Below are positions 1,045 through 21,400 of a stretch of DNA of 23,577 nt, piece by piece; position 1 is the first letter of the stretch; every line of letters starts with the position of its first letter. A model generated the notes under the pieces. It was given only the letters and a program-made list of their open reading frames with translations. It did no database searches and had not been told where the DNA came from. The DNA is taken from NCBI GenBank assembly GCA_036172245.1, contig JAYWIR010000017.1, positions 3,906,001 through 3,929,577 of the forward strand, read 5' to 3'. Position numbers and translations under genes: made by a program. Source of the stretch: Raillietiella orientalis. Taxonomy: Eukaryota.

Positions 1045-1047
1045 AGA

Positions 1048-1265
1048 GTTTTTTTCTATTGATTTTTATTTTATTTTTATTTTTGTTTGCCCCTCCGCTG
1101 CCGGCTGGGCTGTCCGGGGCTCGCCGGCCTGTTGAGTAACCGGTCTGGGTGCTGGTTACGCAACAGTTTCCGAACATTAACGGACAATGTAGGGCCGATG
1201 GTCCTACACATGTATGTTTATTATTTTTATAATAAAGACCCTTGCGTAACCGGGTGTTAAACCGG
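1048..1265 (+). mobile_element. Second, diverged LINE 3'UTR/terminus in tandem behind copy 1
   Basis: Same layout as copy 1: T-rich tract, GC-rich segment, hairpin tgtagggcc-gat-ggtcctaca (1188-1208), AATAAA (1231-1236), then cttgcgtaaccgggtgttaaacc. Confidence 0.6.
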
Positions 1266-1279
1266 ATCCACCCTGTCCT

Positions 1280-1930
1280 AGTAACTGTCTACGACTCTCG
1301 ACCTTGCCGTAACAGGGCGGCCTTTCCAGATGGCCTGGAGAGAGTGGTTGCACTCGGCGCACTCGAAGACAACTGACCTCGTAGCATGGGCCTTCGACGT
1401 CCGCCTGCAGCGTCCACTCTCAGATGAGGGAAGGCTTCCAGAGGAACCTGCAGGAAAAAGAACCCGGGTCTCCGACTCCATCACCCACGTGTTCCTTGAT
1501 GAATAGCTCTGTACGCAGGCCGGATAGCGAAGACAGTTGTACCCCGACCCTGTCGGATCACGCCACTATCCACCCGGAAGAAGGTTCCCGGAAACCTGCA
1601 TTGAAAGGATGTCTCATGGATGGATAGGCCGCCGGGAAGCACGGAAAGAGCTCGGAACCTCCGTGGGAAACCGTCTTATCCACATGCTGGGAAATCCGGA
1701 ATGGTTTCGAACATTCCATACTTCCGTTCGGCGTTCTTCCCATCTCCTTCCGGGCTTCACCGAAGGACAAGAGTGCGGTGGCGCCTCGCTCCGAGCCCGC
1801 ACCCCGGACGCGCGCAGCCCGATGTCGGGAGCTTCAAGGAATGCCCTTCATTAGCGGGAAGACGAACCTGACGATAAGGCGCAGCAGGGCTGCTGCTCAA
1901 CCTCGAAGACCAAATGTGCACCTTCCCACG
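1280..1930 (-). pseudogene. Highly degenerate LINE reverse transcriptase core
   Basis: Minus-strand motif-like segments occur in the expected order: AAPYRQVR (~KAYDRV), PNGSMECSKPFRISQHVDK..ELF (~NG.S.F.I..GVRQG..LF), KEHVGDGV (~YADD), SSESGRCRRTSK (~SG..N.SK). All are degenerate. Confidence 0.4.
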
Positions 1931-2029
1931 CTTGATTTCTTTCTTTTTTTTTTTTTTAAGAGGCCAGTAGCAACCTGGCAGAGAGATCGTCACTATGGTC
2001 CCAGGATGATGGAAATCCTTTTGAAGGTT

Positions 2030-2343
2030 CTTCTGTTTCTCTGCTTTCCTTCTGATCTTTTTTTCCGGATGTTCTTTTTTTTTTTGGCTCCCGAGGAGTG
2101 CCGAAGAACCGCCTACCTCCTCAGAGGAGCTCACGAAGCTCTTCGACACTGCTCACGCCACCCGAGGGTGCGCGCAACACTTCTTCAAGTTACAGGGGGA
2201 CCCTCTCCCCAATCCCTGGAAGGATCCTGGAGGTCATGTTCCAAATGCCAGTCACTCAACGAAGGCATCCCGGTGCCGCGTCCGAAGCCTGCAGGCCAAC
2301 CAGTGCCATCCTGCGGGGTAACTCGAAATCTACGACGCACCCA
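2030..2343 (-). mobile_element. Short copy of the composite element (T-arm-like head, antisense LINE ORF2 segment, A-rich tail)
   Basis: The reverse complement of 2270-2343 matches 8568-8638 and 8976-9039. Segment 2095-2240 matches 8690-8900, 10150-10250 and 11790-11880, with a shared CACCCTCGGGTGG core. The T-rich tract at 2047-2085 is the A-rich tail on the minus strand. Confidence 0.6.
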
Positions 2344-2349
2344 TTTGTC

Positions 2350-2830
2350 GGCGTCGATGCTTTCCTAGCTCACACTCCTTTGGAAGAGACCACCTCCACC
2401 TTCGGCTCTCCTTGAGCTGGAGACAAGATATCCTTCTGTTTCCCTCTTGGGGTCTCCAGAGCGACCGGCACAGGCGCCTGGTTCCCTGGGGAGTGCGTCT
2501 CCAGGCTGTTTGAGGTCGTTCCCGCGCCTCTTGTTGGACTGCGGCGCCCTCCGCGAACTTTGGCGGGGATCGGATTCGGCACTCCTCCTCACTGAGGACA
2601 CCGCCAAGGACTCGCTGCGGCGATCCCTCGCGAGGGGCGGAGTCGCGGCAAGCGCCGTCCTTGAGGCGACGCGTTGCATCTGAGCCATTGCCACAGCCCA
2701 CCATATGCAGGGGTCTCGGACTCAGCTAAGGGAGGGAAGGGCTGGGGATTCTTCCCAACCCCAGACTGCCCCCAGCAACCGACGTGCGTGTCGGTGACTT
2801 CTTTTCGGTCTCGTCGTCGTGGTCGTTGTA
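2350..2830 (-). pseudogene. Degenerate LINE RT N-terminal region
   Basis: Minus ORFs give GVGKNPQPFPPLAES..YGGLWQWL (~GKSPGPDG.PAEFY..FW) followed by GNDLKQPGDAL..DPKRETEGYL (~N.DYK..AKAL...P.Q.GF). The order is colinear with the neighbouring fragments. Confidence 0.35.
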
Positions 2831-2834
2831 ATTG

Positions 2835-2907
2835 TTGTTTCGGGAACAGCGTTCCCAACTTGTTGGTTGATTTTTATAAAATAAACCTCCTTGCGTCACC
2901 GGGTGGA
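2835..2907 (+). mobile_element. Isolated LINE 3' terminus fragment
   Basis: Hairpin gggaac-agc-gttccc (2842-2856), AATAAA (2880-2885), then ccttgcgtcaccgggtg, closely resembling the terminus at 1231-1257. Confidence 0.5.
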
Positions 2908-2919
2908 AGTCAAGGGCAA

Positions 2920-3530
2920 GCTGACTCCCAAAGCGGTGGTCGCGACACCACTGGTCACTGGGGTCTACGATCCCGGACTGCCGCAGGTGCGGGGAACGAG
3001 AATCATCCCTCCTGCACTTGCTCGTGGACTGGGTTGCCCTCTGGCCCTTGCGGGAACGTTTGGGGACGATCCTGGGGATTCCAGCTGGAAACCCTATGGA
3101 TGTTTTAAAACTCCTCTTCATGAAGGATGCCCTACCGCCGGCCGCAGCCTCAGCAGCTCCTTGCTGCATCTGCGGGATCGTGGCTGGAGGACCTCACGAA
3201 AGGAACGCCAACGACTATGCAGTCCTCTTTCCGCAAACAGCAGCCAGATGGTCCCACCTAGGTTCTATCAGGACGGATCTAGCCAGCAACCTGGAAAGAA
3301 TGCGGAGAACGCCTCCAGCATACAGGGATCCCTTCCTTGCCCTCCAGAGTGCTTTTCCATTTATTTTTTGGAGGTGTTTCACCCTCATCGTTTCCTAGGT
3401 GAGTTTCGTCGGTCTGCGTACCGGCAGTCCGGCAGGTCCTTTGTAGAATTGAAAGTGGTAGAACCACGCGCCCGTTCAAGCTTGACAGTTTATCGTTTAT
3501 TTCAATAATCTCCCCGGCGTGACCGGATGG
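2920..3530 (+). mobile_element. Diverged L1/Tx1-like 3' fragment (CCHC finger to terminus)
   Basis: Translation PDCRRCGERESSLLHLLVDW.ALWPL..LGTILGIPAGNPMDVLKLLFMKDAL is homologous to copy 1. The terminus AATAAT..CCGGCGTGACCGG lies at 3504-3526. Confidence 0.7.
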
Positions 3531-3559
3531 TGGCTGTCGTCCAGGGCATACCCTCAGGG

Positions 3560-4490
3560 ACTAAGCGTGAGTTCTTCGGGGCAAGCCTATCCCATTTCCT
3601 ACTGGTTTATGCGTTTGCTTTCCCTTCCTCCCAAGTTTCCGTCTTAGGGAGGGAGGCACCTTTAGCCGATGCATGTCGGTGAGGTGGATGCTCTGGCGAC
3701 TGTGGCTGGAAAGATGGTTCCTAGAATGCGTCTGTTCGTGCCACACGCAGAGAGCACATGGCATCGGAGTTTGCAGCAGGTTCTTGCGTGCCTGCCAGAC
3801 TATGAGACCCTGACAGCCACTGATATTTTATGCGTGCGATTGATGATGCAGAAGATGTACATCAAAACCCCGCATGTTTTCCGGGTCCAATCTTCTCGAA
3901 ACCCAATATTTCTTTCAGCTGCAGATGCAGCAGCATCTTCTGGCTTCACATCCCTCGAAAGGCTTCCTTCTAAACTGGGGAAGAAAGGAAATTCTTCGAT
4001 ACGCGGTACTTGGAGCCATCGATCCTGGCTCCACATCTGATGGGACACGTGGTCTGTGACCGGCAGGAGGCGATGCCAAACGTCGCCCTTCGGTTTCTCC
4101 CCTAGCGAAAAAATCACCTTTGACTCCTGTTTTGTGTATGCTGCTTTTCCATTTCGAGCTGACCACCTCAGATGACCGAAATCAGCCCAGGGTTGCAGTC
4201 GGAAAAATTTCCGCTGGCTTCTTCCAGAAAGGCCAATTCCCACGGTGGTAAGCTCCCAGACGATTTTGCAGCTTCCCCTGCCAAGATCTTCAGACTGATG
4301 ATGTACGAGGCACAGGGAAAGGGAGTCAACTCAAGATCTAGTGACAGTGAGACACCGTGACCTGCATGGCGGTCAGAAGCACCAGCTCTTGCTGACTGGT
4401 ATGAACGTCTTGGCAAGTCCTGTGGCGAAAACATTTCGAATCAGAAAACGTTATTGTCATTGCCGTCAGTTTCCAAAGCCGTTAAGGGAA
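3560..4490 (-). pseudogene. Degenerate LINE APE endonuclease C-terminal half and linker
   Basis: Minus strand reads AGHGVSLSLDL (~GDFN..L..LD), FFRLQP..LRW..G.A (~D.FR..P...TW), LPVTDHV at 4046-4066 (~SDH), then W.RKT..LMYIFCI (~W..K..R...I, typical of L1 ORF2 after the endonuclease). Confidence 0.4.
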
Positions 4491-4497
4491 ACGGGAG

Positions 4498-5860
4498 TGG
4501 ATTGACACCCGGCCACTCCGGGGTGTTTATTTGTTAAAAATAAACATAAAGGCCAGTGGCAAGATGCTGATCCTGCCACGTTACAGAATATACAAAAAAA
4601 AACAGCCGAGAACCAGCGCTCAGACCGGCGAGATTCGCCACGGCAGCACAGGTAAAACAAAAAGAAAAGTAAAACGAAGATACAAAAAATGGGGGTAGGG
4701 GGTTTGGTAAGGGATCACTGTGTGCTGGAGGGTGTCCTTTGCATCCTTGCCAGGATGCCGACGAGTTCCTGCTTCGCGATTCCTAGATGGGGCCATCTTG
4801 ACGCTGTCCTCAAAAAGAGGACTGCAAAATACGTGGCGTCCCTCTCGTTCTGGCTTCCTCTAGCGTTGCTCCATGCAGCCACGGTCCCGCTGCGTGGGCG
4901 GCAAAGTGCTGCTAGAGATGCAGCCGGCGTGAGGGCTTCGCGAAGGAAGAGGAACTCCCGAACGTCTTTGGAGCTGCCCTGAGGGATCCTCAGGGCAGCT
5001 CCAAAGACGGTGATGAGTTCCAACATGAAGAGGAAGGCAACACATTCCATGGACAGGTGAAAGAGGATTCTCTTTTCTCCGCACCTGCAGCAGTTCGGGT
5101 TCACTACCTCCCCCGAGTCCAATAACACTGGCGGGCATTGCATGGGAGGTCCCAGTGCATCAGCAGCAGAGCCAACTCCTGCCATTTCAAGGGGAAGGTG
5201 CGGATGTCCATGAACACGGGAGCCACGGCAGATCTTCCACCGGAAGTCCCAGTAGCTCGCCCCAGTGCAAGTCGTCGAGGGGGGACACTCGGAGTCTCAA
5301 CGTCAAAGTCTTCAACGGTGTTAGCTGGTCCGTCGTCCATTCGTCTAGTTTTTTTCTCCTACCGTAGGTTTCGGCATTGACCTCCCATTTTGCCGCGAGG
5401 TTGCTGCCCACCGTTGAAGGAGGGGTACGCTAGGATTCCATAGAGCATTCCCTGCAAGGTGTTGCCTGTTCGAGTTCGATCCGCAGAGGTGAGACAAACA
5501 GGCCTCGTACTTCCTCTGACCTGTTCGAGTCCTTTTCGCTGAGCGAAATTTCTCAAGGACTCCGCCGAAAAGCAGGAATTCTATTCGTGGCAACGAAACC
5601 GTTTCATTGGGAACCTCCTGCACGTGAAATAAGCAAGAATTACACGCAAGGTGTGTGTGGAGATGCTCCATGGAAGTGGACCTCGAACGGGTTGCGATTT
5701 TGCTTTGCTTGGGAGCTTTCTTCGACAGTGAAACGGTTCCGGAAGCCTTCAGCGGTCACGTGATCTGCATACGTGAAGCAGATATTCCAGGATGAATGAT
5801 GGCTCTGTTCCTGAGTGCAGGAGTTTTCCACTTTACCCAGGATTGCGGTCGCTTTCTCGC
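4498..5860 (-). mobile_element. L1/Tx1-like 3' fragment with the best-preserved CCHC finger
   Basis: ORF 4715-5185 contains NPNCCRCGEKRILFHLSMEC (C-x2-C-x7-H-x4-C). Upstream lie HWGELLGLPVEDLPW, LKWQELALLLMHWDLPCNARQCYWT and NALWNPSVPLLQRW (~PLW.N...W). A 10-bp hairpin sits at 4556-4579, AATAAA (minus) at 4526-4531 and the terminus at 4502-4525. The upstream limit is approximate. Confidence 0.75.
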
Positions 5861-6149
5861 TAAAAATGGTGTGATAGCAATTTATAGATGTCTAATTCCA
5901 AGGAATAAAAAATAACGAAGCCAATTAAAAACACTGGAGGAGAGAGGGGAAGAAAGCAAACGAATTAAAAGGCAAAAAGAGAATTTTGAATTGCATTTTG
6001 CTGTCATTTCCAACACTCAGTCAATGGCATTTCCTATTGGAACAATGGATTCAATTTTCGGGATTCTGATTGTTCGATATATCTAGAATATTCTACAATT
6101 CGATATTTATTTCTTCACTCCATATATATAAAGATGTGTATGAAATTTT

Positions 6150-6480
6150 TCTAATCTTCATTACACATACTGGTAAGGTTTATAGGGGATAAGACGCTTT
6201 CCCCAGTTACGGTGTAACCAGGTGGCATATCGGTGTTATAGTGTGCCCAGATGAGTTGGAAATAGGGTCTACTATTCCTCAGATAGGTCTCCTGATGGGT
6301 ACATGCTGATTCAATGATGGCGGGCATTGAACATTTGGAGTTAGTCTGCTGCAAATTTTGCATAAGGTGGTAACCTACGGAGACAGGTTCCTTTCTTCCC
6401 GAGAATCGTCCCGTCTTTCCCACAGAGGATGCTGAGACATTGAATCTGCTTTCCTAAAGATGCACAATAAGATCATGCAG
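6150..6480 (-). pseudogene. Degenerate LINE APE endonuclease N-terminus
   Basis: ORF 6151-6423 reads VSVGYHLMQNLQQTNSK..ACTHQETYL (6280-6303), resembling the N.RGL...K....DI..LQETH start of APE endonucleases. Confidence 0.4.
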
Positions 6481-6499
6481 CAGGTGTATTTGAGTGTGT

Positions 6500-8280
6500 G
6501 TCCCTGAATGCTCGTCTCATGGTCCATTCAGAGAGGTTGCGTCTCTGAGAAGCCGAAATTTGATCTGATTGCTCCCTGGGGGCGCCTTCCTTTCCCGACC
6601 TCCAGTCCTCAAGGGGTAGTTTTCGACTTGCTCAGAAACAGTCACCTGTTTCGCGGGTGGAACGTCTCTTCCGGTCGACGTCTCCGATCACAAAGATGCA
6701 CAGCAGAATCTGAAATCCATTCATTTCGGGATCACTGCCTGTCAGATTAAGGCGGTGCCCTTGCAGCCGTTTCTGCGCTCCGTGCCACCACTCAAAGAGC
6801 TCGGCTGCATTACTGATCCTTTTGTGAGAGAGGATGCCAACAATCTCAGCAGAGACTTCTTAGGTTGAAGGAAGACATCGTGGTGTGGCTTGGCGGCGCG
6901 AAAGAAATTCGTCGAGTGGGTTTCGATGCTGAGAATCTTCCCTATTTGCTTGGCCCATGTGCTTTAGTAATAGTGAGCGCTCTTGACTCCTCTGGAATCC
7001 TTTCCGCTTGTCTTTTCTGAAGAAGGCAGGCTCTTCAAACTGAAGTGGATCCATAGCACCCACTCTTGGCGATCGCTAAAATGGAGATCAAACAGATCTC
7101 TCCGAGTTACCGGGTTCGCACGGATCTGCAGACGGCGTTTCCGACCTCGGCGAATCAGGGAGGAGGACTTGATGTATGGATTCCTCAATCACGAGGATTG
7201 GTGGATCAGTGGACTTCTATAAGGAGTCGGTTCCTGCATCTCCTCTGGAAGGTGATTTCCTTTAGTGGGCTACTTGAAAAACCACTTGAAACCCTTCCTC
7301 CGGCTCCTTCCTTGACAGGAAGGAGCCGGAGGAAATTCTTGTGGAGGTACACAGAGATCCCGACGTGCAAATAGGTCGTGAGAGCTAAAAGTAGGGACGA
7401 AAGACGAATCGAACCATCTGGTGGCTGCTAGTTTCCTCCGAAGTTTCCTTCAGGTTAGCTGGCGCTCGCTGAGGTGGAAAAAGAACGGAGCCTCATCCAG
7501 TAAAGCGGATAATTCCAGACCTTGGGAACAAAGTGACCTCGACCTATTACCCAACTTGAAATGGGCAAGGAGTCCGGCCTGCTTGAAAGCTGAACTCGGA
7601 CTGTCGGATCCATGAGCGCCTAGTTGGCCTACTTTGATGAGCAGAACTCGAGTTATGGGATGAACCGAACATTGGGTTACGGCTCCCGATGCGGCGCCCG
7701 CCAGATCCCATGAAAGGTTTTGGTTGCTATGGACAGCAGGACGGTGAAGTTCGAATCTGCTAAGGAGTGTTGGCAGCCATTCACCTGCCGAAGCAACCGG
7801 TCCTGGAGATGGGTGGCGTTCAGGAGTCTGGTCTACACTCAACCGCCGGGACACAGCTACTCTTGGCTCCAATCTTCAAGATAGCGGTACCCAGAAAGGG
7901 ACCACCCTATGAATCTAGGAAGGACTCTGGAGAAAGAGTCCTTCCTAGCTTTGAAGGGAACCTCTTCCTCATTCTCTCCGGAGGGGTCCCACTCTCGAAG
8001 GGGACTGCTCCATTTTTTCTTGTCCGAAGGAAACCCAGAAAGGCTTTGCTACCAGGAATTCCTTCTCCGGAGGGGACCCGAATTTCTTCCGTCTTCTTCT
8101 CCTCTGAAAAGAGCCCCGAACGGACGCTTCTGGAATTTCTCAGAAGGGGCTCCCCAAAAAGAGCAGCACTCTCCTTTGCACCTTGGAGAGGCGTCATCGA
8201 TCCACCAGAGATTACAACTCGCAAACTGGTCGTTAATCCTCTTGTTCCGTTTTTCCTCCTGCCATCTTAAAGCTTCGAGC
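6500..8280 (+). pseudogene. Degenerate LINE ORF2 (RT core through post-RT region)
   Basis: Ordered motif-like segments: SIQRGCVS (6523-6546, ~RQGCPLS), CFAGGTSL (6647-6670, ~FADDT), FGITACQIK (~FG..SG..IN), GRLFKLKW (~GR..L.K), PTSANQGGGLDV (7141-7176, ~P..GGLG). Segment 7785-8210 is homologous (opposite strand) to 9900-10250 and 11520-11880. Confidence 0.5.
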
Positions 8281-8379
8281 ACGCGAGATTCTCAGATGTG
8301 TCCGGAAACGCTGAGTGGAGTCAGTTTCAAGATGGGATGGCGTCGACTACGTTGAGAAGAAGACGCTTTGCAATCGCTG

Positions 8380-8974
8380 GGGGGCCGTGCGGCTGCGGGC
8401 TTCTGCGTGGCACCAGGTTTTGCGGGTTCGAATCTCACCCGGGAGCGAGGGGGGGTATCAACTCCGAGAATGAGCCCATGTCGGAGGCCACATGGTTATG
8501 GTCTCAGCGCGTGGCACTAAGCGCCGTGGGTTCGAATACTCGACAAGAATCAATGCCGGAGAGATGTGGGTGCGCGTAGTGGGTTTGAGTTCCTCCCGCG
8601 AGATGACACTGGTTGGCCTGCATTCGGGTGCGGCATCGATAGAGGTTCAAACTGGATGCTCCCGATGAGGGCTGAAAATGAGAGTAGACCTCCAGGTCCT
8701 TCCAGGGATCAAGAAGTGGGAGTTCCCCTCCGGTTGTGCAAAGAAGCGGACTCCCCTTTCGAGCCCCTCCGTAGAGTAGGTGTCGTCAGTTCATCCCCAT
8801 CAGGTTACCCCATTATAACTTGAAGAGATAATACTCACCCTCGGGTGGTGTGGACAGCCTCATAGAGCTACGTGAGCCGCCAAGCGCGCGACGGTTCTTG
8901 AGAAACTTGGCGAACCGCCCCCAAAAAGGAAAAGCCGATAGGAAAAAAAAGAAAAGCAAAGCTGGAAGGAAAAC
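8380..8974 (+). mobile_element. Composite SINE-like element: tandem tRNA T-arm/B-box-like head, antisense LINE segment, A-rich tail
   Basis: GGGTTCGAAT occurs at 8424 and 8528 within ~104-bp-spaced related units, with a third degenerate unit at 8568-8638. The body is homologous to 11385-11490 and 2095-2240. The A-rich tail spans ~8922-8974. Confidence 0.55.
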
Positions 8975-9037
8975 AGCGTCGTGGGTTTCGAGTCCTTCCG
9001 CAGGATGGCACTAGTAGGCCTTTTCGGGTACGGCACT

Positions 9038-10262
9038 GGTTGACACCCGGTCACGCCGGAGCGTTTATTTATAAGGTGAACATCCATGTCTGTGGCAGGA
9101 CGTTTGATTCTGCCATGTTACTTATAACTACGAGGAGGAGCCTGCCGGGATCTGACATGCAGGCCAGCAGGGTTCGCCTCAGCAGCACAGGGGAAGGGGA
9201 GACAAACAAAGAGAAAAAAACAAAACAAAAAATGCAGTCAAAAAACGAAGGGAAGGGAGGAGGGGAGTTCGGGAAGGGATCACTGTGCTGAAGAACGTCC
9301 TCTGCATAATTGTAAGGATGCTGGCAAGTTCCTGTCTTATGGTTCCCAGATGAAGTCATCTTGACGCTACCCTCATGAAGAGGACGGCAAAATAGATGGC
9401 GTCCCTGTCGTCCTGATCTCCTCTGCAGCCACGATCCCGCCTTGTGGGCAGGCAAGCACTTCTAGGGATGCGGCCAGCCTGAGGGCGTCGTGCAGGAAGA
9501 GGCACCTTACAACGTCTCTGGTATTGCCGTCGGGAGTTCCAAGTGTCGTGGCAAAGCGTCCTGAAAAGGGTCGGAGTGCAACACAGTCCATTAGGAGGTG
9601 CGGGAGGCTTCCCAATCCACGCACCTTGCACAGTTTGGGTTCACACACACCCGTGTCCACAGATGCCGGTGGGCGTTGCACTGGAAGCCCCAGTGCAGCA
9701 GCATGAAAGACGAATGCTGCCACTTTAAGAGGAGGGTGCGGCACTGACGGAATACAGAAACCTCCGGATGCTCCGTCGACTGTCTCCAGGATTGCAAGTC
9801 GACCTTTCGAAGTCCTCCCAGGATCAAGGAGCAGTCCTCCTCATGCAAGGAGGGTCCCTCCTCGGTCGCGTACCACAGAGCTGATCGATGCTGCTCTCGG
9901 GAGGTTGCCTCTCCAGAGCATCGGAAGCTTCCTTCAGAGGACTTTAGAAACGTCCCTTCGGGGTTTTCTTCCCAGGAGGAAACCAGGAGCGATTCCCGGA
10001 GGAGAAATTTCAGAAGATACTTCTTTCCGAGAAGAAACGAGGAGTGGCAGTCCACTCCGAGGGTGCCTCTGGAGAGAAATTAGGAAGATGTTCCCTCCTA
10101 AGCTTAAGAGGAACGCGCTCCTTCCTCCTGAGTCTTCCTAGGTGGTCCATCCAGGGTTACCCCCTCAGTTGAAAGGTTGAAACACACCCTCGGGTGGCGT
10201 GAACAGTGTTGAAAGAGCTTTGTGCGCGCCTCCTAAGGCGGCTAACGGTTCATGGGTACTTA
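9038..10262 (-). mobile_element. L1/Tx1-like 3' fragment (~1.2 kb) embedded in a composite unit (head motif 8976-9039, A-rich tract 10271-10293)
   Basis: ORF 9591-10055 ends LKWQHSSFMLLHWGFQCNAHRHLWT..NPNCARC, continuing as SLPHLLMDC. The 3'UTR and terminus (9038-9115) are nearly identical to 964-1044. Confidence 0.75.
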
Positions 10263-10299
10263 GCAACCTCAAAAAAAGAAAGAAAGAAAAGGGAAGACG

Positions 10300-11150
10300 G
10301 TCGACAAATGCATTATCTTCATCCTTCAAATGCGAAAAGTTCCAAAGAGTTCGGCGATGCGTGCCAAATTGGAAGCTTCAACTCTGAGCGCGCTCAAGGA
10401 CCCATGTTGCGTAAGAAGACCTCGGCAGGGCAAGAGACACTCTTGGTCTCCCTACGTCACTCTTCAGGTCACCCTCCGATCCGCGAATCCTCCTCCCCCC
10501 CCCTTCCTCTTCAACTCTCTGCTCTCCCGACATTCCAGCGCTACTCATTTTTCTCCTTCTGCCGACAGCTGTTCGCTTTCTCTGGGAGACGCTGTTGAAA
10601 TTTGGAAGCAGGATTTCCCAAGAATCCATTTTGAGGAGCGCTTCCTGTTTTGCCCGCTCCTGATTCGCTTTCTCCGCCCTCCCTCCACCTGCGCATTCTG
10701 GATTTTTCAAGCAGCAGGGACGATCGAGGTTTCAGGGTTTCCCAACATTCCTCTCATGCTCGCAGCATCCACCCCATCCTGGAGATCACCACGCTCTAAG
10801 ATATATATCCCTTCCCCAGGAACTCATTGCCCCCCACGCGAGACTACATGTCCGGATGCGTCGTTGCCGTGCGGTTCCTATGAGATTGAGGACCACTAAC
10901 GTACGGAGCATTGCAAGAACGCGTGGTGCATTCAGAAGTATTGATGCTGCGGGTGGATGGTCGCGACATGGAATCCTCATGCGTTCCCTGGGGAGTGTCT
11001 GTGACGTAACGGTGTGTTCGGTCGCATCTGCGGCGACTTGAGCGTGTGGAGTCTGGCGACGCCTTTCCGAGAGAATGCCTCCTTTCCGGATGCTCGTTAG
11101 CAGTGGGGTCGCAGAGGTTAGCCCTCCAGCCTCCCCCTGCTCTCCCAGCT
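10300..11150 (-). pseudogene. Possible decayed LINE ORF1 (gag-like) fragment
   Basis: Only a weak resemblance: IGTARQRRIRTCSL..MSSWGRDIYLRAW*SPG..CCEH.RNVGK (~TG.R.v.l...IPS...G..v.Y.GQ..C..C...GH), followed by a charged low-complexity segment. Confidence 0.2.
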
Positions 11151-11174
11151 ACCCTTCCTTGTCCCCCGCGCACT

Positions 11175-11940
11175 CTGCCAGCTGAGCGATTGGTCGCTGC
11201 CAGACGCGACGCCGAGATGCCGACTCGCGTCGGAGGTCTCCGCGCGCGGCGCCAACCGTTATGGGTTCGAATCCCGCCCGGGGAAGGGCCAACTCCAGAG
11301 AAACAAGTGCGTCGTGGGTTTTAAGTTTCCCCCACAGGTTGGCGCAGCACCGGCCTGTTGACTGGCCGGGACTGGAGCGTAGGATGGAAGTCGACTCTCT
11401 GGGATCCTTCCGGAAATCAAGGATCGCCGGCTCCATTCGGGGTGTTCCTCCGGTTGTGAAAATGGAGTTGTTCCCTCTCTCCTTCTAGGGAAGGACCTTT
11501 CGATCTCGTACCATGGAGCCGGTGGATCGACACCTCTCCAGGGTGCAAAGATGCGCGCTGCTCCCTTCGGAGAGCGATCTTCCAGAGAAATTGGGAAGCG
11601 TTCCTGTGGGATTCATCTTCAGAGGAGGAAACAGGGAACGGATCCTTTCCCGGTTCCCTCTGGAGAAGAAATCATGGAGTGGTGGTCCCCTCCGGAGGGT
11701 CCCTCCAGAGCGAATGAGGGTTCCCTACCAATCAAAGAGGAACGGACTCCTTCCTCCTGAACTTTCTGGATTCATAGGATGCTACATCCGAGAGCTCACC
11801 CCCTAACTTAAAGAGTTCCACGCGACCTCAAGTGGAGCGCGCGGACAGTGCTAAGGAGCTCCGTGAGACCCCTTCAAGAAGGCGAACGAGAGAGGGAGAG
11901 AGAGAGAGAAAGGTGAAGAAGCGAAAACATAAGAACCTAG
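11175..11940 (+). mobile_element. Composite SINE-like element with a perfect B-box, antisense LINE body and GA-rich tail
   Basis: GGGTTCGAATCCC at 11263-11275; a possible degenerate A-box (cagctgagcgattggt) at 11179-11194; head motif at 11307-11375; body homologous to 8680-8770, 9900-10230 and 7880-8210 (rc); (GA)n/A-rich tail at 11887-11935. Confidence 0.55.
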
Positions 11941-11949
11941 AAGGACTTC

Positions 11950-12330
11950 GATGCCATCAGGACTGGGATGCGCACTTTGATTTCAGCCAAGAGTCCGGGG
12001 AGCGACGCCGAGATAGAGAGAGGCAGCGGGCAAGTCATCATCCCGTTTGTTCTCCCGTTCGGCGAGAATCGCAGAGAGATGCCGCCGTTGCCTGGGACCA
12101 TGGAAACAGCATCCTGCACTGGATTCAGAGGGCACAATGCGACGGAGGGCGATCTCGTCACTTCCCCTTCCTGGAAACAATAATTTGCCCAATTTTTTTT
12201 TATTTTCACTTTTTTTCTTTCTGGTCTTCCCTCCCGTTTGTTCCCTTGCCGAACCTCGCCGGCATACTTCTGCCAATAGTTGGCTCTGGTGGAACTTGAA
12301 CTTCTTCCCCAGCTGCTTGTTTATTGTTTA
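11950..12330 (+). mobile_element. Strongly diverged LINE ORF2 end and T-rich 3'UTR
   Basis: ctgggaccatggaaacagcatcctgc..ggattcagagg..tcacttccccttcctggaa followed by a T-rich tract aligns by eye with 738-880. Confidence 0.45.
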
Positions 12331-12349
12331 CTTTCTAGTCAGCAAACGC

Positions 12350-15030
12350 CCGGCACGACGAGGTGGGAAACTCCGTCCCTCCAATACGAGGACAGTGAGG
12401 AGACAGCGCTGCTGCCATTCTTCGCTGAATACAAAACAAGAGCGGAGTGCAGCTGGAGAGTCAGCAACGAACTCCATACACCAGAAAGTTCTTACCGGGG
12501 CATTGTCCTTCGTTCACCGGCCATCAGAAAAACATTCCGGATCCACCTCGCACGATACCCTGAACAGATGACCACAAAAAGTCATCGTCCTGGAGTTCCG
12601 TAAACAGGATTGGCTGCTGGAATTCTCTTGGCAGGGTGGAGGCCAATGCATCTTCATTCGAACTTCTGTTCCGAGTTCTGAGCATTGCCAGGCAACTCCT
12701 GGAACAATGGAGTTCGTTCTTAAGCCCTGACCTGCTGCCACAGAAACCTAATCGCTCATTGAACTGCCTTTCCTCAGCCACTTTCCTACTCATTCATATG
12801 ATGCTCAGCCTACATCGAAACGGTATTTGTATTCCACTGCTATTTGACTGTAGTGTAAAAGGATGTGACAAGCGTTCAACGTACATGCAGGAATGGTGTG
12901 ATGAAGCTCTTCCACTTTCCTGGAGATCACCACATCGCTTGCCGATCCTAGAAACGTTCCAAGTTTTACCACGTTAGGCAGATCTCTTGCTAGAAGCTAT
13001 GCAAAATGACGCATTGGAGGGATGCCAGCGTGCAGGAATAGATGGCCATCTTCCGGAGGGAAGCACCGCAGAAACTAACGTGTGCACATCACGAAAATGA
13101 ACACCCAGAGATGTTTGATACATTGAGCAAATGCAAACTACCCATGAGAAGACTTCAGCATGACCTGCACCAGCACGCGCCCTCCTTCCCTTCCCTGAGG
13201 TGAGCGAACACTTGACACGAGGTAAAGTACGTCGTTTCGTGTGACGAGTCCGCAACGTTGCATTAGAAGGATGCGAGCAGCACCTCCGTGCTTTCCTGCT
13301 GCGAGACCCGGAACGAGCTGCCATCTCAGCACTTTCCTTCGCCTTTCTCCCGAGGCAGTGCGCTCAACACTGCGCAAGATCACCGTTTCCGTGCCTGTCC
13401 CGAAAATAGGCAGCCACTCGGATCCCATTTAACCCCACATCGCCACATTTAGATGGAATTCAGTGCAAGTAGCCATCTTCCTGGACATCCTTTCGGGATC
13501 TGCTTTCGGAAACACTTGCAATGTTACCCGAAGCCGGGAAGCTAAGCTGGGAAGCTTTGGCGAGATCAGATGGGGCTTTGAGGATCCACTGTGGAAAACT
13601 CCCATTGCGAAGTTGCCCCGCGGGACGTCCTTTTACAATTCCATAATGCAGGTGAACAACCCATGGGCCTTTCGGAACGAAGCCCAGAACAAAAGCACTT
13701 TGATACTAGACATTCAGGAAACTGAGCTTTTCGACATCACTTCCTGACTGCAGAGTTCGTGACAGGTGATGTCTGAGGGATGACGGTAGCTCCCACGGTA
13801 GCAGAAAACTACTTTTCTGCAAGCAAGCAGTGGCGGTGCTGAGGCTGTATGCGAAAATCTGCACTCAAATTCGCAAACGACAAGAGTCACTGAAACGAAA
13901 GACAGCACGGGGCTCAGGAATTCTGTGCTTTCGTTTCAGTGACTTGTCGTTTGCGAATTTGAGTGCTGTTTCAGCACGACAACACACTCTGGTGTTTCCG
14001 TTGCCAGAGTGTGTTGTGACTCCATCTGCCGGCCACTCAAAACTGGGAAGAATCTCTGTGGATAAGGGAAAGCACATGAGCCCTTCACGTCCCTCCTGGA
14101 AGAACTGAGAGGTCACACTGTCCAAACTGAGGAAGACCTTTTCGTAATGAAGTATATGAAGGCAATGAAGCAAACTGAGAGAGCATCGGTCCTCAAATGA
14201 CCTCATTTTGCTCGCCGCCTTTATATAAACTTTTCGGAAAACCTTCCTTACGAGTTGCCTCCGCAACGCAACAAGCCCAGAGGAGAAGAATGGCAACTAC
14301 CAAAAGGAGAGCTCTGTACCCACCTCGACACAGTGCTTTGCTTTCACGACCAGGTCCTCCACGGAACCGCTCCAGAGTGTGCGTTCGACTCGCGCCAAAG
14401 GAAGGACAGAAGCTCATGGACTCAGAAGGCCTCAAGAGCAATTGAAGTCACATCTCGACGTGTGAACAAGGGAACCCACGCAACGGCAGCTTGGCACCGT
14501 CATCGATACGTCGTGCTCTTCCCTGTCCGACACCACCGATCCAACAGATTCACAGAAAGTCAAAAATGTAAAAGTATAAAACTTAGCTGTTTCGCTGGTC
14601 ATGGAACGCTTGTTAGCTGCGGGACACCTGGATGTCAACTACTGGAAGAAACAAATTTCATTATGGAATCGAACTCATCTGGAAAATCTTCTGAAGACTC
14701 CTTCCGTAGAGACCACTGTGGCAGGAAAACATAAGAAATCATATTCTGCAGAATGGCAACGACCATGTGCAACTGAAACATCTGGGAAAAGTTTCAAGTG
14801 CTTTGAACAAATGCGGATCTTGTGTGTGCATCAAAGTGATGTACAAAAATCCGCAAACTCACCTATTTTTTTTGTCGAAACTCCCAAGGATCACAAGGTT
14901 TTTATCAAAGTCTTACCGTGCTTGGAACACCATCGAAACCAATGGAATCACATTTTTGCCATCTTAGTGCACGAAAAAGAGAATTCTTGTCTGTACCCTG
15001 AGAAGTTTATGCGAAGCAAGTGGCTTTGAA
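12350..15030 (-). pseudogene. Long decayed L1/Tx1-like ORF2 (APE endonuclease + reverse transcriptase)
   Basis: Colinear motif remnants: LVILGSFD 14874-14897 (~ILGDFN), VSDR 14522-14533 (~SDH), CDFNCS (~WKFN.S), RGSYRHPSDITCHEL (~GK.PGPDG..EF), GLFTCI..KD...GNF..LASRLRVTL 13519-13545, ILRSVERTAS (~LD.EKAFD), GSASDVVISRKVEEL 12904-12948, RLGFCGSRSGLKNEL (~LS..GR..L.K), FLW 12572-12580. Contains stops and frameshifts. Confidence 0.6.
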
Positions 15031-15053
15031 CTCATGAGGAAACTGACGTCCGA

Positions 15054-15130
15054 GAACCCATGAAGAAGCTATGAACCTATGAAACCTAAAACCTATGAAC
15101 CTATGAAACGGAAAACCCATGAACCCTAGG
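15054..15130. repeat. Degenerate short tandem repeat, approx. (AACCYATG)n
   Basis: gaacccatgaagaagctatgaacctatgaaacctaaaacctatgaacctatgaaacggaaaacccatgaaccctagg. Confidence 0.75.
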
Positions 15131-15439
15131 CCCAAGCCTGTTGCAGAAATTATCTTTCTCCCCTCAATCATTAAATGAATATCATTTTCGAACTTCAGGG
15201 AAGAATTGAGAAATTCAATTAGTAGCAGATGCTTCGGTCAATTGCAGCTTATAGTCACGGATCGACAACCTTCCGCGTTTGCACTTCCGCACACTTGATA
15301 TTGCTGCTAGGCATGCAAACCGCCTTAAGTTCAAGACAAAATATACAGTTCACATGACTGTGCACTCTAATTTGTTAGCTCTCCACAAAACTGGCAGTCG
15401 TCCAGGGTTCCGTGTTAACTATTACCAAAAAGAAAATCG

Positions 15440-15475
15440 ATGATCCCAATTCTTAGACTGCTCTTGTTACTTCAG
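15440..15475 (+). CDS. Mucin-like gene exon 1 (signal peptide MIPILRLLLLLQ)
   Basis: ATG at 15440 and a hydrophobic core. The phase-0 donor CAG|GTAATG at 15476 matches the acceptor tctccttctag at 15580. Confidence 0.75.
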
Positions 15476-18400
15476 GTAATGCATGAACATTTTAAAAATA
15501 TAGTGAATCCATGATATAAGTACTATAAAAGAAAAATTGAAGCGACGCTGTGCAAAGACCTCTTTCATGTCTCCTTCTAGACATTAGTATGGCATCCTAC
15601 ACCTTCATCTGTCCAAACCGTATCTGGCTTGATGAATGTGGAGATGCACCAAGCAAAACGATGCAAATTGACACGCCTGAATGAAGAAAGCTATTCATTA
15701 GAAATGCCTGACCTTAGAGGCACTCCCTCTTGTGACATAGGTCTACATGTAAGTAATTATGCAGCAAATTCTATCGATAGTAACTAGAGGTTTTCCTATC
15801 GAAGAACGGCATCTTCCCATTTGCAGCAGAATTGTCTATAACTCCTAACAAAGACACAAGAAACAGAGAAGGAGCATTGCAATTCAAGGATATCATCAGA
15901 TCAAAGAAGTAGGTACCATAATACTGAGAGAATGTTTCTCACATATGCTCAACGCTTCGAGAAATTACTGTTTACACAGAAACTTGTAGTCTATTCCCAT
16001 AACATTATATTACTGTTTACATAGCAACTTGTAGTCTATTCCCATGACACTATATTACTGTTTACATAGCAACTTGCAGTCTATTCCATGACATTATATT
16101 AGACATTTCATTCCAAAACCATCATTCATTGTATAAAGAAATGAACGAATCCAAAAACAATAACTACAATGCGTTTTAGGATCACTTTCCAAGACGTAAA
16201 GGAGAAAGAAAGCTACTGCATTTTTCGAGGTGCTCAGATCAGCCTCATGGATACCCGTCTCCAAGGAATTCAGATCGACATAAAGAATATCGAAAAGCCA
16301 CACCCATATCTAATACAAAAAACTGACGAATACTTTCGGGTTCCAAGTCTCAAAGTAATAACATCAGCAAGAAATGAAAAAACATCTTATATAGAAGTGA
16401 AGGTAAGAATCAATATAAAATGCATTTAAACTAATCCTTAATTCACATCATATCGTGTGAGCGAACACCATCACCAAAGTAAAGAAAAATTACACTGAAT
16501 CATTCTTAAACAAAATAGAATATTCTAACATAACCAATGGGAAAATATACAGGATTTCCGAGCCCTTCACAACACGTTAACTAGCCAAAAAAAAACCCGA
16601 TCATACATCAAAAAACTCTCTTCACATCGACAAATTATCAAACAGCAATGCTAATAACAAAGTAACCAATTAACAGAAAGAGTCAAAACAAACTTCATAG
16701 AAAAACCACTTTTCTTTATCCCACAGTCCGGCAAAACTTTTCAAGCATCCGCAATACTTAGACGGATACCAACAGAAAAAAAAATCACCTACACAATCTA
16801 CGTCACTACAGCAGCAAGGAAAAACCCTAAGAAGCTACAAATATACAGGTTCAACGCAACCAGCCTTCAAATCAACAGAGAAATCCGAGCGCAAAATCAA
16901 GGATCCAGTTTACAATTCATTCTCATCGGCAACAGCAAGTATTTAGGAAAAGGACTTTGCATCTTTACAAAACAAATAAAAAATAACAAAATTCCAACAA
17001 CAACACCAGGTAAATAGAAAAAAATCAACAACACAAAAACAGACAAAATCAAAAAACAACCACCAAATAATTAGCAAAAATTTCTCCCTAGAAATAATCA
17101 ACCCAACAACGCCGCAACGAAAAACAACGACCAGTGCTACTACGAAAACCACCAACACACAGACAACTCAAAAGACACCACTACTAACATCCTCAACAAA
17201 ATACTCAAGCATAAGTCCAACAACAATTTCCAACCCATCAAGTGAACAGACATCACAAAAAACCACCACCAGGACTACAAAACCAACAACCAAAACAGAA
17301 AAGCCATCATCAACTCATCAGTCACCCCAAAGCAGTACCGTAAGCGCCACTACAGGAACAACGGCATGGTCTTCCCAAACACTGACAACCACAACCACAT
17401 CAACTACTGCTACTCATAGCTACGGTAGCACAGACACAACCCCATCTTCTGCATCCACCGAAGCAAGCAGTCCCATCTCCACCACATCAACTGCAAGCAC
17501 ATCAGAAGTTACGGAAACGACAGCTGCCTCCAGTTCCCCTTCGTCAACGGCGTCAACACCGGAGCCGTCAAGTTCATCCGACACGTCTGCCACACCAACG
17601 CTAACGCCTGCGTCCACTACTGGCAGTACCGTCAGCGCCACTTCAGGAAGCACAGTATCCTCCTCCCTCGCAACCACAACCACGACAGCCTCTTCAACTG
17701 GTACTGGGAGACCCGGTAGCACCGACACGAGCCCATCTTCCGCATCCACCGAAGCAAGCAGTCCCATCTCCACCACACCAACTGGAAGCACATCAGAAGT
17801 TACGGAAACGACAGCTGCCTCCAGTTCCCCGTCGTCGCCGGCGTCAACACCGGTGCCGCCCAGTTCATCCGACACGTCTGCAACATCCACGCTATCGCCT
17901 CCGTCAACCGCAGGCAGTACCGTCAGCGCCCACTACAAGAAGCACAGCCTCCTCCTCCCTCGCAACCACAACCACTGCAGCGTCCTCTGCTGGTACTGGG
18001 AGTCCCGGTAGCAGCGACACGAGCCCATCTTCCGCATCCACCGAAGCAAGCAGTCCCATCTCCACCATACCAACTGGAAGCACATCAGAAGTTACGGAAA
18101 CGACAGCTGCCTCCAGTTCCCCGTCGTCGCCGGCGTCGAGCCCCGGTGCCGCCCGCTTCATCGACACGTCTGCCACATCCACGCTATCGCCTGCGTCAAC
18201 CGCAGGCGATGCCGTCAGCGCCACTACAGGAAGCACAGTATCCTCCTCCCTCGCAACCACAACCAGTGCAGCGTCCTCTGCTGGTACTGGGAGTCCCGGT
18301 AGCACCGACACGAGCCCATCTTCCGCATCCACCGAAGCAAGCAGTCCCATCTCCACCACACCAACTGGAAGCACATCAGAAGTTACGGAAACGACAGCTG

Positions 18401-21400
18401 CCTCCAGTTCCCCGTCGTCGCCGGCGTCAACACCGGTGGCGCCCAGTTCATCCGACACGTCTGCCACATCCACGCTATCGCCTCCGTCAACCGCAGGCAG
18501 TACCGTCAGCGCCACTACAAGAAGCACAGCCTCCTCCTCCCTCGCAACCACAACCACGGCAGCGTCCTCTGCTGGTACTGGGAGTCCCGGTAGCACCGAC
18601 ACGAGCCCATCTTCCGCATCCACCGAAGCAAGCAGTCCCATCTCCACCACACCAACTGGAAGCACATCAGAAGTTACGGAAACGACAGCTGCCTCCAGTT
18701 CCCCGTCGTCGCCGGCGTCAACACCGGTGCCGCCCAGTTCATCCGACACGTCTGCAACATCCACGCTATCGCCTCCGTCAACCGCAGGCAGTACCGTCAG
18801 CGCCACTACAAGAAGCACAGCCTCCTCCTCCCTCGCAACCACAACCACAGCAGCGTCCTCTGCTGGTACTGGGAGTCCCGGTAGCAGCGACACGAGCCCA
18901 TCTTCCGCATCCACCGAAGCAAGCAGTCCCATCTCCACCATACCAACTGGAAGCACATCAGAAGTTACGGAAACGACAGCTGCCTCCAGGTCCCCGTCGT
19001 CGCCGGCGTCAACCCCGGTGCCGCCCACTTCATCCGACACGTCTGCCACATCCACGCTATCGCCTGCGTCAACCGCAGGCAGTACCGTCAGTGCCACTAC
19101 AGGAAGCACAGTATCCTCCTCCCTCGCAACCACAACCAGTGCAGCGTCCTCTGCTGGTACTGGGGTCCCGGTGACACCGACACGAGCCCATCTTCCGCAT
19201 CCACCGAAGGAAGCAGTCCCATCTCCCACCACCCCAACTGGAAGCACATCAGAAGTTACGGAAACGACAGCTGCCTCCAGTTCCCCCGTCGTCGCCGGCG
19301 TCAACACCGGTGGCGCCCAGTTCATCCGACACGTCTGCCACATCCACGCTATCGCCTCCGTCAACCGCAGGCAGTACCGTCAGCGCCACTACAGAGCACA
19401 GCCTCCTCCTCCCTCGCAACCACAACCACGGCAGCGTCCTCTGCTGGTACTGGGGAGTCCCGGTAGCACCAACACGAGCCCATCTTCCGTGCATCCACCG
19501 AAGCAAGCAGTCCCATCTCCACCACACCAACTGGAAGCACATCCAAGTTACGGAAACGACAGCTGCCTCCAGTTCCCCGTCGTCGCCGGCGTCAACACCG
19601 GTGCCGCCCAGTTCATCCGACACGTCTGCCACATCCACGCTATCGCCTGCGTCAACCGCAGGCAGTACCGTCAGCGCCACTACAGGAAGCACAGTATCTT
19701 CCTCCCTCGCAACCAGAACCACGGCAGCGTCCTCTGCTGGTACTGGGAGTCCCGGTAGCACCGACACGAGCCCATCTTCTGCATCCACCGAAGCAAGCAG
19801 TCCCATCTCCACCACACCAACTGGAAGCACATCAGAAGTTACGGAAACGACAGCTGCCTCCAGTTCCCCTTCGTCACCGGCGTCAACACCGGTGCCGCCC
19901 AGTTCATCCGACACGTCTGCCACATCCACGCTATCGCCTCCGTCAACCGCAGGCAGTACCGTCAGCGCCACTACAAGAAGCAGCCTCCTCCTCCTCGCAA
20001 CCACAACCACAGCAGCGTCCTCTGCTGGTACTGGGAGTCCCGGTAGCAGCGACACGAGCCCCATCTTCCGCATCCACCGAAGCAGAAGCGGTCCCATCTC
20101 CCACCACACCAACTGGAAGCACATCAGAAGTTACGGAAACGACAGCTGCCTCCAGTTCCCCTTCGTCACCGGCGTCAACACCGGTGCCGCCCAGTTCATC
20201 CGACACGTCTGCCACATCCACGCTATCGCCTCCGTCAACCGCAGGCAGTACCGTCAGCGCCACTACAAGAAGCACAGCCTCCTCCTCCCTCGCAACCACA
20301 ACCACAGCAGCGTCCTCTGCTGGTACTGGGAGTCCCGGTAGCAGCGACACGAGCCCATCTTCCGCATCCACCGAAGCAAGCAGTCCCATCTCCACCACAC
20401 CAACTGGAAGCACATCAGAAGTTACGGAAACGACAGCTGCCTCCAGTTCCCCGTCGTCGCCGGCGTCAACACCGGTGCCGCCCAGTTCATCCGACACGTC
20501 TGCCACATCCACGCTATCGCCTGCGTCAACCGCAGGCAGTACCGTCAGCGCCACTACAGGAAGCACAGTATCCTCCTCCCTCGCAACCACAACCACAGTA
20601 GCGTCCTCTGCTGGTACTGGGAGTCCCGGTAGCACCGACACGAGCCCATCTTCCGCATCCACCGAAGCAAGCAGTACAATCTCCACCACACCAACTGGAA
20701 GCACATCAGAAGTTACGGAAACGACAGCTGCCTCCAGTTCCCCGTCGTCGCCGGCGTCAACCCCGGTGCCGCCCACTTCATCCGACACGTCTGCCACATC
20801 CACGCTATCGCCTGCGTCAACCGCAGGCAGTACCGTCAGCGCCACTACAGGAAGCACAGTATCCTCCTCCCTCGCAACCACAACCAGTGCAGCGTCCTCT
20901 GCTGGTACTGGGAGTACCGGTAGCACCGACACGAGCCCATCTTCCGCATCCACCGAAGCAAGCAGTCCCATCTCCACCACACCAACTGGAAGCACATCAG
21001 AAGTTACGGAAACGACAGCTGCCTCCAGTTCCCCGTCGTCGCCGGCGTCAACACCGGTGGCGCCCAGTTCATCCGACACGTCTGCCACATCCACGCTATC
21101 GCCTCCGTCAACCGCAGGCAGTACCGTCAGCGCCACTACAAGAAGCACAGCCTCCTCCTCCCTCGCAACCACAACCACGACAGCCTCTTCAACTGGTACT
21201 GGGAGTCCCGGTAGCACCGACACGAGCCCATCTTCCGCATCCACCGAAGCAAGCAGTCCCATCTCCACCACACCAACTGGAAGCACATCAGAAGTTACGG
21301 AAACGACAGCTGCCTCCAGTTCCCCGTCGTCGCCGGCGTCAACACCGGTGCCGCCCAGTTCCATCCGACACGTCTGCAACATCCACGCTATCGCCTCCGT

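What the first reader, a model, noticed from the sequence alone, without database searches (positions are those of the whole stretch)
8380..11940. Candidate new non-autonomous element: tRNA-like (Pol III B-box) head + ANTISENSE LINE ORF2 body + A-rich tail, four copies
Seen: four units (2343->2030 minus; 8380-8974, 8976-10293 and 11175-11940 plus) share a ~70-nt head motif (GTGCGTCGTGGGTTT(C)GAGT..CCGCAGGATGGCACT..GGCC..CGGCAC). Each continues into LINE ORF2 sequence in antisense with different internal deletions. All stop near the same ORF2 point and end in an A- or GA-rich tract. The long LINE body at 7785-8210 has the same ORF2 segment but no such tract, so the boundary belongs to the derivative. 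Known: tRNA-derived SINEs usually borrow a LINE 3' tail in the sense orientation. Inference: this is a SINE-like chimera carrying antisense LINE coding sequence, which could both hitchhike on and silence its parent LINE. Alternative: the head motif is the LINE's own 5'UTR or its insertion target, read on the other strand.
Basis: partly seen in the sequence, partly recalled or inferred. Interest (0 to 1): 0.7.

Follow-up and report, generated by a model that had tools for sequence, protein, structure and literature searches.

The report
Long SINE used as LINE landing-pad
This is an abundant non-coding jumping repeat (a SINE) whose middle is a short tandem repeat, not a backwards piece of a LINE gene; it looked like one because LINE elements in this genome insert again and again at fixed spots inside it, a known habit with an unusual target.

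Summary
The four units are copies of one dispersed family of about 0.8-1.0 kb (1257 first-look candidates). It has a tRNA-like head with two B-box-like motifs and a body of degenerate 40-41-bp tandem repeats. The body matches no intact ORF2. The 'LINE body' at 7785-8210 is a 28S rRNA fragment plus another SINE piece. The A-rich tract is internal: the full 3' end is a 43-nt hairpin plus poly(A), with TSDs. Only 9041-9733 is LINE: a 5'-truncated L1/Tx1-type copy inserted antisense with a 13-bp TSD. 11 of 20 LINE-picked loci sit at that same SINE site; inserts are independent. A sister LINE inserts in sense at the hairpin base, where most copies end with no poly(A) and no TSD (49 of 55). That tailless class is unexplained. 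The scan noted this SINE and the antisense site before on other DNA of this genome. The antisense-ORF2 chimera is not supported.

The parts
1944..2369 (-). SINE copy 1: starts at model ~65, deleted 262-696, keeps the complete 3' end
   Evidence: nhmmer; sequence
1961..2003 (-). Terminal 43-nt hairpin, followed by a short pyrimidine run and poly(A) (1957-1944)
   Evidence: young copies z -4.9 and -3.0; this decayed copy z -0.9
7307..7872 (+).
   Evidence: Rfam RF02543
7872..8207 (-). SINE body fragment, model 328-717; not LINE
   Evidence: 209 bits; no ORF2 hit
8381..8470 (+). Separate decayed tRNA-like head, model 11-89
8474..8975 (+). SINE copy 2: intact 5' end, deleted 333-686, cut inside the internal A-rich tract where copy 3 joins
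8474..8560 (+). tRNA-like head with first B-box-like motif; best sampled match tRNA-Glu(CTC), 48 of 81 columns (59%)
8976..9040 (+). SINE copy 3, left part (model 98-170), ending in the LINE target site
9026..9038 (+). Left copy of the LINE's target-site duplication (12 of 13 identical to 9734-9746)
   Evidence: locus L182
9041..9733 (-). 5'-truncated L1/Tx1-type LINE (ORF2 C-terminus, 3'UTR, AATAAA, terminal hairpin, no poly(A)), antisense to the SINE
9734..10324 (+). SINE copy 3, right part: right TSD, repeat body, A-rich tract, decayed tailless end (end read by eye; model hit stops at 10300)
11223..11958 (+). SINE copy 4: near full length (model 4-871), tailless end, no hairpin

Best explanation
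A long tRNA-headed SINE. SHOWN: a fixed 5' end; a degenerate tRNA-like head with a duplicated B-box unit; a body containing a variable tandem array of ~41-bp units; an internal A-rich tract; a 3' hairpin, T-run and poly(A). Poly(A) copies have TSDs and are often 5'-truncated, so the head strand is the RNA strand and the copies arose by target-primed reverse transcription. INFERRED: Pol III transcription from the head, and mobilisation of poly(A) copies by a poly(A)-recognising LINE that was not identified. SHOWN: one L1/Tx1-type LINE subfamily inserts antisense at model position ~170 with 6-15-bp TSDs and varied 5' truncation. A sister subfamily inserts in sense at the base of the terminal hairpin. 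In both, the LINE's last bases resemble the target. INFERRED: endonuclease site preference plus 3'-end annealing to the target, as is known for Tx1-clade elements. The window unit 8976-10324 is one such nested insertion; its 5' junction falls on LINE-target microhomology, which makes ORF2 appear to run on into the SINE body. Most copies end at the hairpin base without poly(A) or TSD. My best guess for these (about 45%) is reverse transcription primed internally, or on RNA cut, in the linker before the hairpin by a machinery that leaves no TSD.
For: Dispersal and limits. No ORF2 origin. The body read as protein finds 146 places (of 150 scored), longest open frame 583 aa and most with stops inside the match. 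Tandem array of 40-41 bp x 4.6-5.5. Polarity: T4+ runs 0.6 per copy in sense against 4.9 in antisense, n=38. TSD score in 7 full-length poly(A) copies 6.6 against 3.2 in permuted pairs, p=0.0015. 5'-truncated poly(A) copies carry 16-bp and 9-bp TSDs (L221, L237). 19 of 20 fetched hairpin-pattern hits (20 of 46 fetched) have SINE upstream. Target site 1: 11 of 20 loci picked by the ORF2 C-terminus alone have the SINE head at the LINE 3' end. In 30 loci where the SINE resumes within the fetched DNA, 28 had a locatable junction and 26 a target-containing TSD; inserts are 252-1579 bp. The LINE tree is star-like, and the three copies with near-identical breakpoints are only 78-80% alike against a background of 78%. 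Target site 2: L183 is SINE tail, ~950 bp of sense LINE, then hairpin and poly(A); 5 exact genome-wide matches of LINE end plus hairpin start, 0 in the reversed control.
Against: tRNA identity of the head is 59% over 81 columns, just under the SINEBase 60% rule; only 30 of 62 tRNA hits were fetched. No RNA evidence was obtained. No LINE among those sampled shares the 3' hairpin (best E 0.089), so the partner is unknown. The hairpin is 90% paired but shows no covariation beyond shuffles, and the body folds no better than shuffles in 12 of 13 copies on the sense strand. Among 29 distinct mid-picked copies, by my reading 13 lack the tail motif and 5 lack the head, the opposite of plain 5' truncation. 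Tailless copies have no TSD at the junction (n=26, p=0.32) or within 950 nt (n=25, 5.7 against 5.6). Targeting is not exclusive: 12 of 21 other family-1 3' ends lie outside site 1, as do the window copies ending at 1046, 3529 and 4502. All samples are top-scoring hits, not random draws. The LINE clade was not tested with a tree.
Confidence: 0.85

Rival explanations
1. One reading: a chimera of tRNA head, antisense ORF2 body and A-tail that hitchhikes on and silences its parent LINE.
For: Real antisense ORF2 lies directly behind the head in copy 3, and one tblastn hit runs 22 nt past the junction (to 9755). A parent LINE family that was not sampled cannot be excluded: only 150 of 3358 RT candidates were scored.
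Against: No body match to any sampled LINE at DNA or protein level; the body is a tandem array; the ORF2 piece is bounded by a TSD; the reference 'LINE body' is rRNA plus SINE.
Confidence: 0.04
2. The SINE+LINE unit is a composite that retrotransposes as a whole, the LINE piece riding as a passenger and giving antisense LINE RNA from the Pol III head.
For: L182 (the window), L186 and L190 have almost the same LINE 5' breakpoint. 10 of 28 LINE pieces, the window's included, have no T4 run in their first 680 nt on the SINE strand, so read-through is possible.
Against: Those three are not sisters (78-80% identity); insert lengths otherwise differ and most carry their own TSD; the shared breakpoint lies on LINE-target microhomology.
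Confidence: 0.07
3. Tailless copies are damage products: the sense-inserting LINE's endonuclease cut genomic SINE copies at the hairpin base, and repair deleted the hairpin, poly(A) and 3' TSD.
For: The tailless ends cluster within -3..+1 nt of that site (43 of 49); the same site is a LINE target; it would explain the missing TSD; hairpin-bearing clades lie both outside and nested inside the tailless copies.
Against: It needs most copies of some subfamilies to have been cut. Only 3 of 49 tailless sites have family-1 LINE directly downstream by blastn (a fourth, L193, by blastx). The label is strongly clustered on the tree (3 changes against 12 shuffled), which suggests subfamily- or time-specific origin.
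Confidence: 0.2
4. The element is not a Pol III SINE but a non-autonomous retroposon read on the opposite strand, or moved by a TSD-less route (tyrosine recombinase or Helitron type).
For: Most copies lack TSD and poly(A); truncation is commoner at the tail.
Against: Poly(A), TSDs and head-side truncation in the hairpin class; T-run asymmetry; no terminal inverted repeats or A|T insertion preference seen.
Confidence: 0.05

Closest known systems
tRNA-derived SINEs (SINE2) with a body of unknown origin; the quasi-oligomeric CHRS family (SINEBase, PMC3531059; Definitions section and passages read)
   Same: Head-body-tail layout, dispersed, high copy, variable tandem motif in the body, poly(A) tail and TSD in one class.
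   Different: About 0.8-1.0 kb against 75-662 nt for the 175 listed families; 41-bp unit against ~20 nt; tRNA identity borderline; a large class with no tail and no TSD.
Tx1-clade LINEs that target other transposons: Tx1 in Tx1D, Tx1-Mar in Mariner-N4_AMi, Tx1-8_Crp and Tx1-4_AMi in LTR elements (PMC4494074; passages read)
   Same: Repeated independent insertion at a fixed site of another repeat; exceeds that paper's 20% rule (11 of 20).
   Different: The target is a SINE, with at least two sites and opposite orientations used by sister subfamilies. No such case turned up in the listings of three searches (listings and abstract starts only). Repbase and subscription papers were not searched.
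SINEs with LINE-derived middle bodies (RTE or Vingi 5' parts; PMC5786205; abstract, introduction and methods read)
   Different: Those bodies come from LINE 5' regions; here no LINE origin was found for the body.
Tailless retropseudogenes (PMC5322556; passages read)
   Same: 5'-intact, 3'-truncated copies without poly(A), ending at a structural boundary; internal priming proposed.
   Different: Those were defined by 8-35-nt TSDs; the tailless copies here show none, and they are the majority class in my sample.

Membership tests
SINE (SINEBase definition) | Short (<1 kb), interspersed | tested here: met
   Full copies 685-1019 nt to the tail motif, consensus 879, on many contigs; the longest young copies slightly exceed 1 kb
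SINE (SINEBase definition) | At least 100 copies | tested here: met
   146 scored places; 1257 first-look candidates
SINE (SINEBase definition) | At least 60% identity to a tRNA over at least 60 nt | tested here: inconclusive
   59% over 81 columns to tRNA-Glu(CTC), z 4.2, 0 of 300 shuffles; several other tRNAs score 57-58%; 26 distinct tRNAs from 30 of 62 hits tested. ARAGORN and Rfam call no tRNA in the window
SINE (SINEBase definition) | Pol III transcription from an internal promoter | not testable with these tools
   B-box-like motifs and scarcity of sense T-runs are indirect only
SINE (SINEBase definition) | Non-coding, spread by LINE-type reverse transcription | tested here: met
   No conserved ORF; poly(A), TSD and 5' truncation in the hairpin class
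SINE with LINE-derived body or tail | Body or 3' end homologous to a partner LINE | tested here: not met
   limited to the LINE families sampled
Tailless retropseudogenes | 5'-intact, 3'-truncated, no poly(A) | tested here: met
   49 of 55 tail sites; a few of the 49 are decayed hairpins or LINE insertions
Tailless retropseudogenes | Flanked by 8-35-nt TSD | tested here: not met
   the copies are old (terminal branches 0.11-0.18 for most), so very short TSDs could be missed
Target-specific Tx1-clade LINE (the inserted element) | APE endonuclease plus RT in ORF2, zinc-knuckle ORF1 | tested here: met
   Pfam on sister full-length copies L051, L052, L055
Target-specific Tx1-clade LINE (the inserted element) | More than 20% of flanks in one target | tested here: met
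   11 of 20 ORF2-picked loci; 9 of 21 in a stricter motif scan
Target-specific Tx1-clade LINE (the inserted element) | RT phylogeny places it in the Tx1 clade | not tested
   No reference RT set was on hand; the label rests on architecture and recall

The most novel reading that the evidence does not exclude
One SINE acts as a multi-site safe harbour for sister Tx1-type LINEs (positions ~170 antisense, hairpin base sense, perhaps ~72 sense) and co-evolved with them. All 15 interrupted copies that passed a strict motif scan carry one sequence variant just 3' of site 1, whereas intact copies are 37 of the other variant to 5, so later SINE subfamilies may have escaped by changing the site. The sense-inserting LINE's machinery may have produced the TSD-less tailless class, and antisense inserts behind the Pol III head may yield anti-LINE RNA. 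Timing alone could explain the variant bias: LINE inserts are ~12% from consensus, intact-variant heads 12-16%, interrupted heads 16-17%, and the intact sample was picked with queries of that variant.
Probability: 0.2. Interest if true: 0.65.

Novelty: new variant of a known kind. Interest (0 to 1): 0.38.

Why it matters
As a SINE it is a long but ordinary family. The part worth keeping is the targeting. Target-specific LINEs are known for RNA genes, microsatellites, DNA transposons and LTR elements; a SINE with two fixed landing sites gives many natural insertion and non-insertion records from which endonuclease specificity and target escape could be read. The sharp tailless, TSD-less ends offer a second testable question about how SINE RNA is primed. 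It is also a caution: nested antisense LINEs with microhomology junctions mimic chimeric elements.

Tried and rejected
Body as ORF2 or ORF1: Pfam on 28 window ORFs gave no family over cut-off; tblastn, blastn and nhmmer against sampled LINE loci were negative. Body as a known RNA family: Rfam on window 1-17300, on 20 head-picked loci and on 3 poly(A) loci found nothing in the element. A match to the full rDNA spacers could not be tested; only partial 28S flanks (L135, L148) were compared. Body as a selected hairpin array: CTTCGG is enriched (3.1 against 0.4 per copy) but comes with the repeat unit; folding z is near 0 in most copies. Hairpin covariation: none beyond shuffles; alignment A1 had one row in the wrong orientation and was replaced by A2. 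Reverse polarity: considered, dropped. Partner LINE by shared 3' end: none in 41 loci. Distant TSDs or chimeras for tailless copies: none. Shared repeat downstream of tailless copies: only 4-5 of 48-49. Expression: no RNA holder listed, which is no evidence either way. Earlier notes near this finding: none shown. No paper supplements were opened; those of PMC4494074 may list further Tx1 targets.
Full report
Setting. The window is the last 23.6 kb of contig C17 of a 210-Mb eukaryotic genome. Its first 12 kb are a pile of decayed retroelement pieces; from 17.3 kb on it is a Ser/Thr-rich tandem repeat.

The repeat is real and dispersed. A search with 8560-8960 gave 1257 first-look candidates, 40 scored, 30 loci fetched. 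These share a sharp 5' boundary equal to window 8474. A search with a tail segment gave 961 candidates and a sharp boundary 40-60 nt beyond the A-rich tract. A profile from 18 full copies (876 positions) maps five pieces and one stray head in the window: 2369-2004 minus, 8207-7872 minus, 8381-8470, 8475-8951, 8976-9042 plus 9734-10300, and 11226-11952.

The body is not ORF2. I recovered near-complete LINEs of the family whose 3' ends litter the window (L052: 1123 aa, EN plus RT) and of other families. tblastn places ORF2 in the finding only at 9305-9755. The SINE profile overlaps LINE frames in 41 LINE loci only where a LINE is nested in a SINE copy. The segment 7785-7872 is 28S rRNA. The body holds a degenerate tandem array of 40-41-bp units over consensus 376-638; its origin is unknown. 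It folds no better than shuffles in 12 of 13 copies tested.

True 3' end and polarity. 5 of 42 tail sites, including window copy 1, continue into a hairpin and poly(A). A search with that end gave 192 candidates; the 30 fetched show the hairpin, 2-9 pyrimidines and usually an A-run. Full-length poly(A) copies have TSDs (n=7, permutation p=0.0015), as do two 5'-truncated ones. T4+ runs are rare on the head strand. So the head strand is the RNA strand. The hairpin is stable in young copies (z -4.9 and -3.0), 90% paired in 20 copies, but shows no covariation above shuffles. No sampled LINE shares it. The head resembles tRNA, best Glu(CTC), at 59%, so formal SINE membership is borderline on that one criterion.

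Why it looked like antisense ORF2. In copy 3, 9041-9733 is a LINE 3' fragment on the minus strand between 13-bp repeats (9026-9038 and 9734-9746). In 20 loci picked only by the ORF2 C-terminus (one of them the window's own 4502-5430 copy), 11 have the SINE head ending at model ~170 against the LINE 3' end. The 30 loci picked by the junction itself show the same site by construction and serve only to test independence. Of the 50 loci, the SINE resumed within the fetched DNA in 30; 28 had a locatable junction and 26 a 6-15-bp TSD containing the target, with inserts of 252-1579 bp. The inserts form a star tree, which argues for separate insertions and against a travelling composite. Against exclusivity, 12 of 21 other 3' ends of this family lie elsewhere.

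Subfamily bias. Interrupted copies carry one variant 3' of the site (15 of 15 in a strict scan); intact copies are 37 to 5 for the other. In the least biased intact set (mid-picked) the count is only 4 to 2. LINE inserts are about as old as or a little younger than the intact-variant copies, so sequence preference and timing are not separated.

Second site and tailless copies. Outside the poly(A)-picked sets, 49 of 55 tail sites lack the hairpin, and 43 of the 49 end within -3..+1 nt of its base. They have no TSD. On a tree of 38 copies, an old hairpin group lies outside and a young hairpin clade (86-98% identical) lies inside the tailless copies, so source copies probably kept the hairpin throughout; recombination could also explain this. 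A sister LINE subfamily inserts in sense at exactly this point: L183, L242, L089, L204 and 5 exact pattern matches against 0 in the control (one of the five is L242). That accounts for only a few tailless copies. The rest I attribute, with low confidence, to internal priming or RNA cleavage at the hairpin base; cut-and-repair of genomic copies is the rival.

Comparison with known systems. SINEBase lists tRNA head plus unknown body plus tail as the commonest structure and CHRS as a tandem-motif case (PMC3531059). Tx1 elements that target DNA transposons or LTR elements are described (PMC4494074, passages). LINE-derived bodies are known from RTE and Vingi 5' regions (PMC5786205, first part read). 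Tailless retropseudogenes require TSDs (PMC5322556, passages). I saw no SINE-targeting Tx1 in the listings; that is not a full literature check. The labels Tx1, B box and R2-like are partly recalled.

Earlier notes. The scan had noted the antisense site and the tandem-hairpin body on other DNA of this genome. I had reached the first before looking (note) and the second. The passenger reading of one note is not supported for most copies. I did not see the terminal hairpin with poly(A), the tailless class or the second site in the notes shown.

Verdict. Observation partly confirmed; the antisense-ORF2 chimera is not supported. What is there is a long SINE that sister LINEs use as a fixed target. 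Interest 0.38.

Noticed in passing
L132:880-1015 and 6150-6289, L133:7070-7211 (G000:C71): Intact Tx1-type LINEs of a second family stand in tandem arrays, their 3' ends joined to U4 snRNA sequence (Rfam; junctions): a possible U4-targeting lineage. Other copies of the family sit elsewhere, one antisense inside the SINE (L149).
   Followed up: partly
L135:693-7554, L148:1250-3700: A different non-LTR family inserted antisense in 28S rRNA at the same junction in both loci, by recall close to the R2 site.
   Followed up: partly
L213, L224, L240 (SINE model position ~72): Family-1-like LINE 3' ends in sense orientation joined to the SINE just after the first B box: a possible third target site.
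   Followed up: partly
window 17318-23577: Mucin-like Ser/Thr-rich tandem repeat of ~291 bp (97 aa) with many frameshifts, running to the contig end; the frameshifts may be sequencing errors.
   Followed up: no
window 7307-7872: Decayed 28S rRNA fragment abutting a SINE piece.
   Followed up: partly
window 4951-5021, 7295-7334, 13856-13971: Local inverted repeats; Rfam microRNA hits there are far below gathering scores.
   Followed up: no
window 284-1046 (+), 2943-3529 (+), 4502-5430 (-): Further 3' fragments of the same LINE family that are not inside the SINE.
   Followed up: partly
L184 and L198 (G000:C3, 78 kb apart); L174 and L175: Near-identical locus pairs (99.6% for the first): recent segmental duplications or assembly duplicates.
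   Followed up: no
L020, L169: Two SINE copies joined tail to tail at their tailless ends.
   Followed up: no
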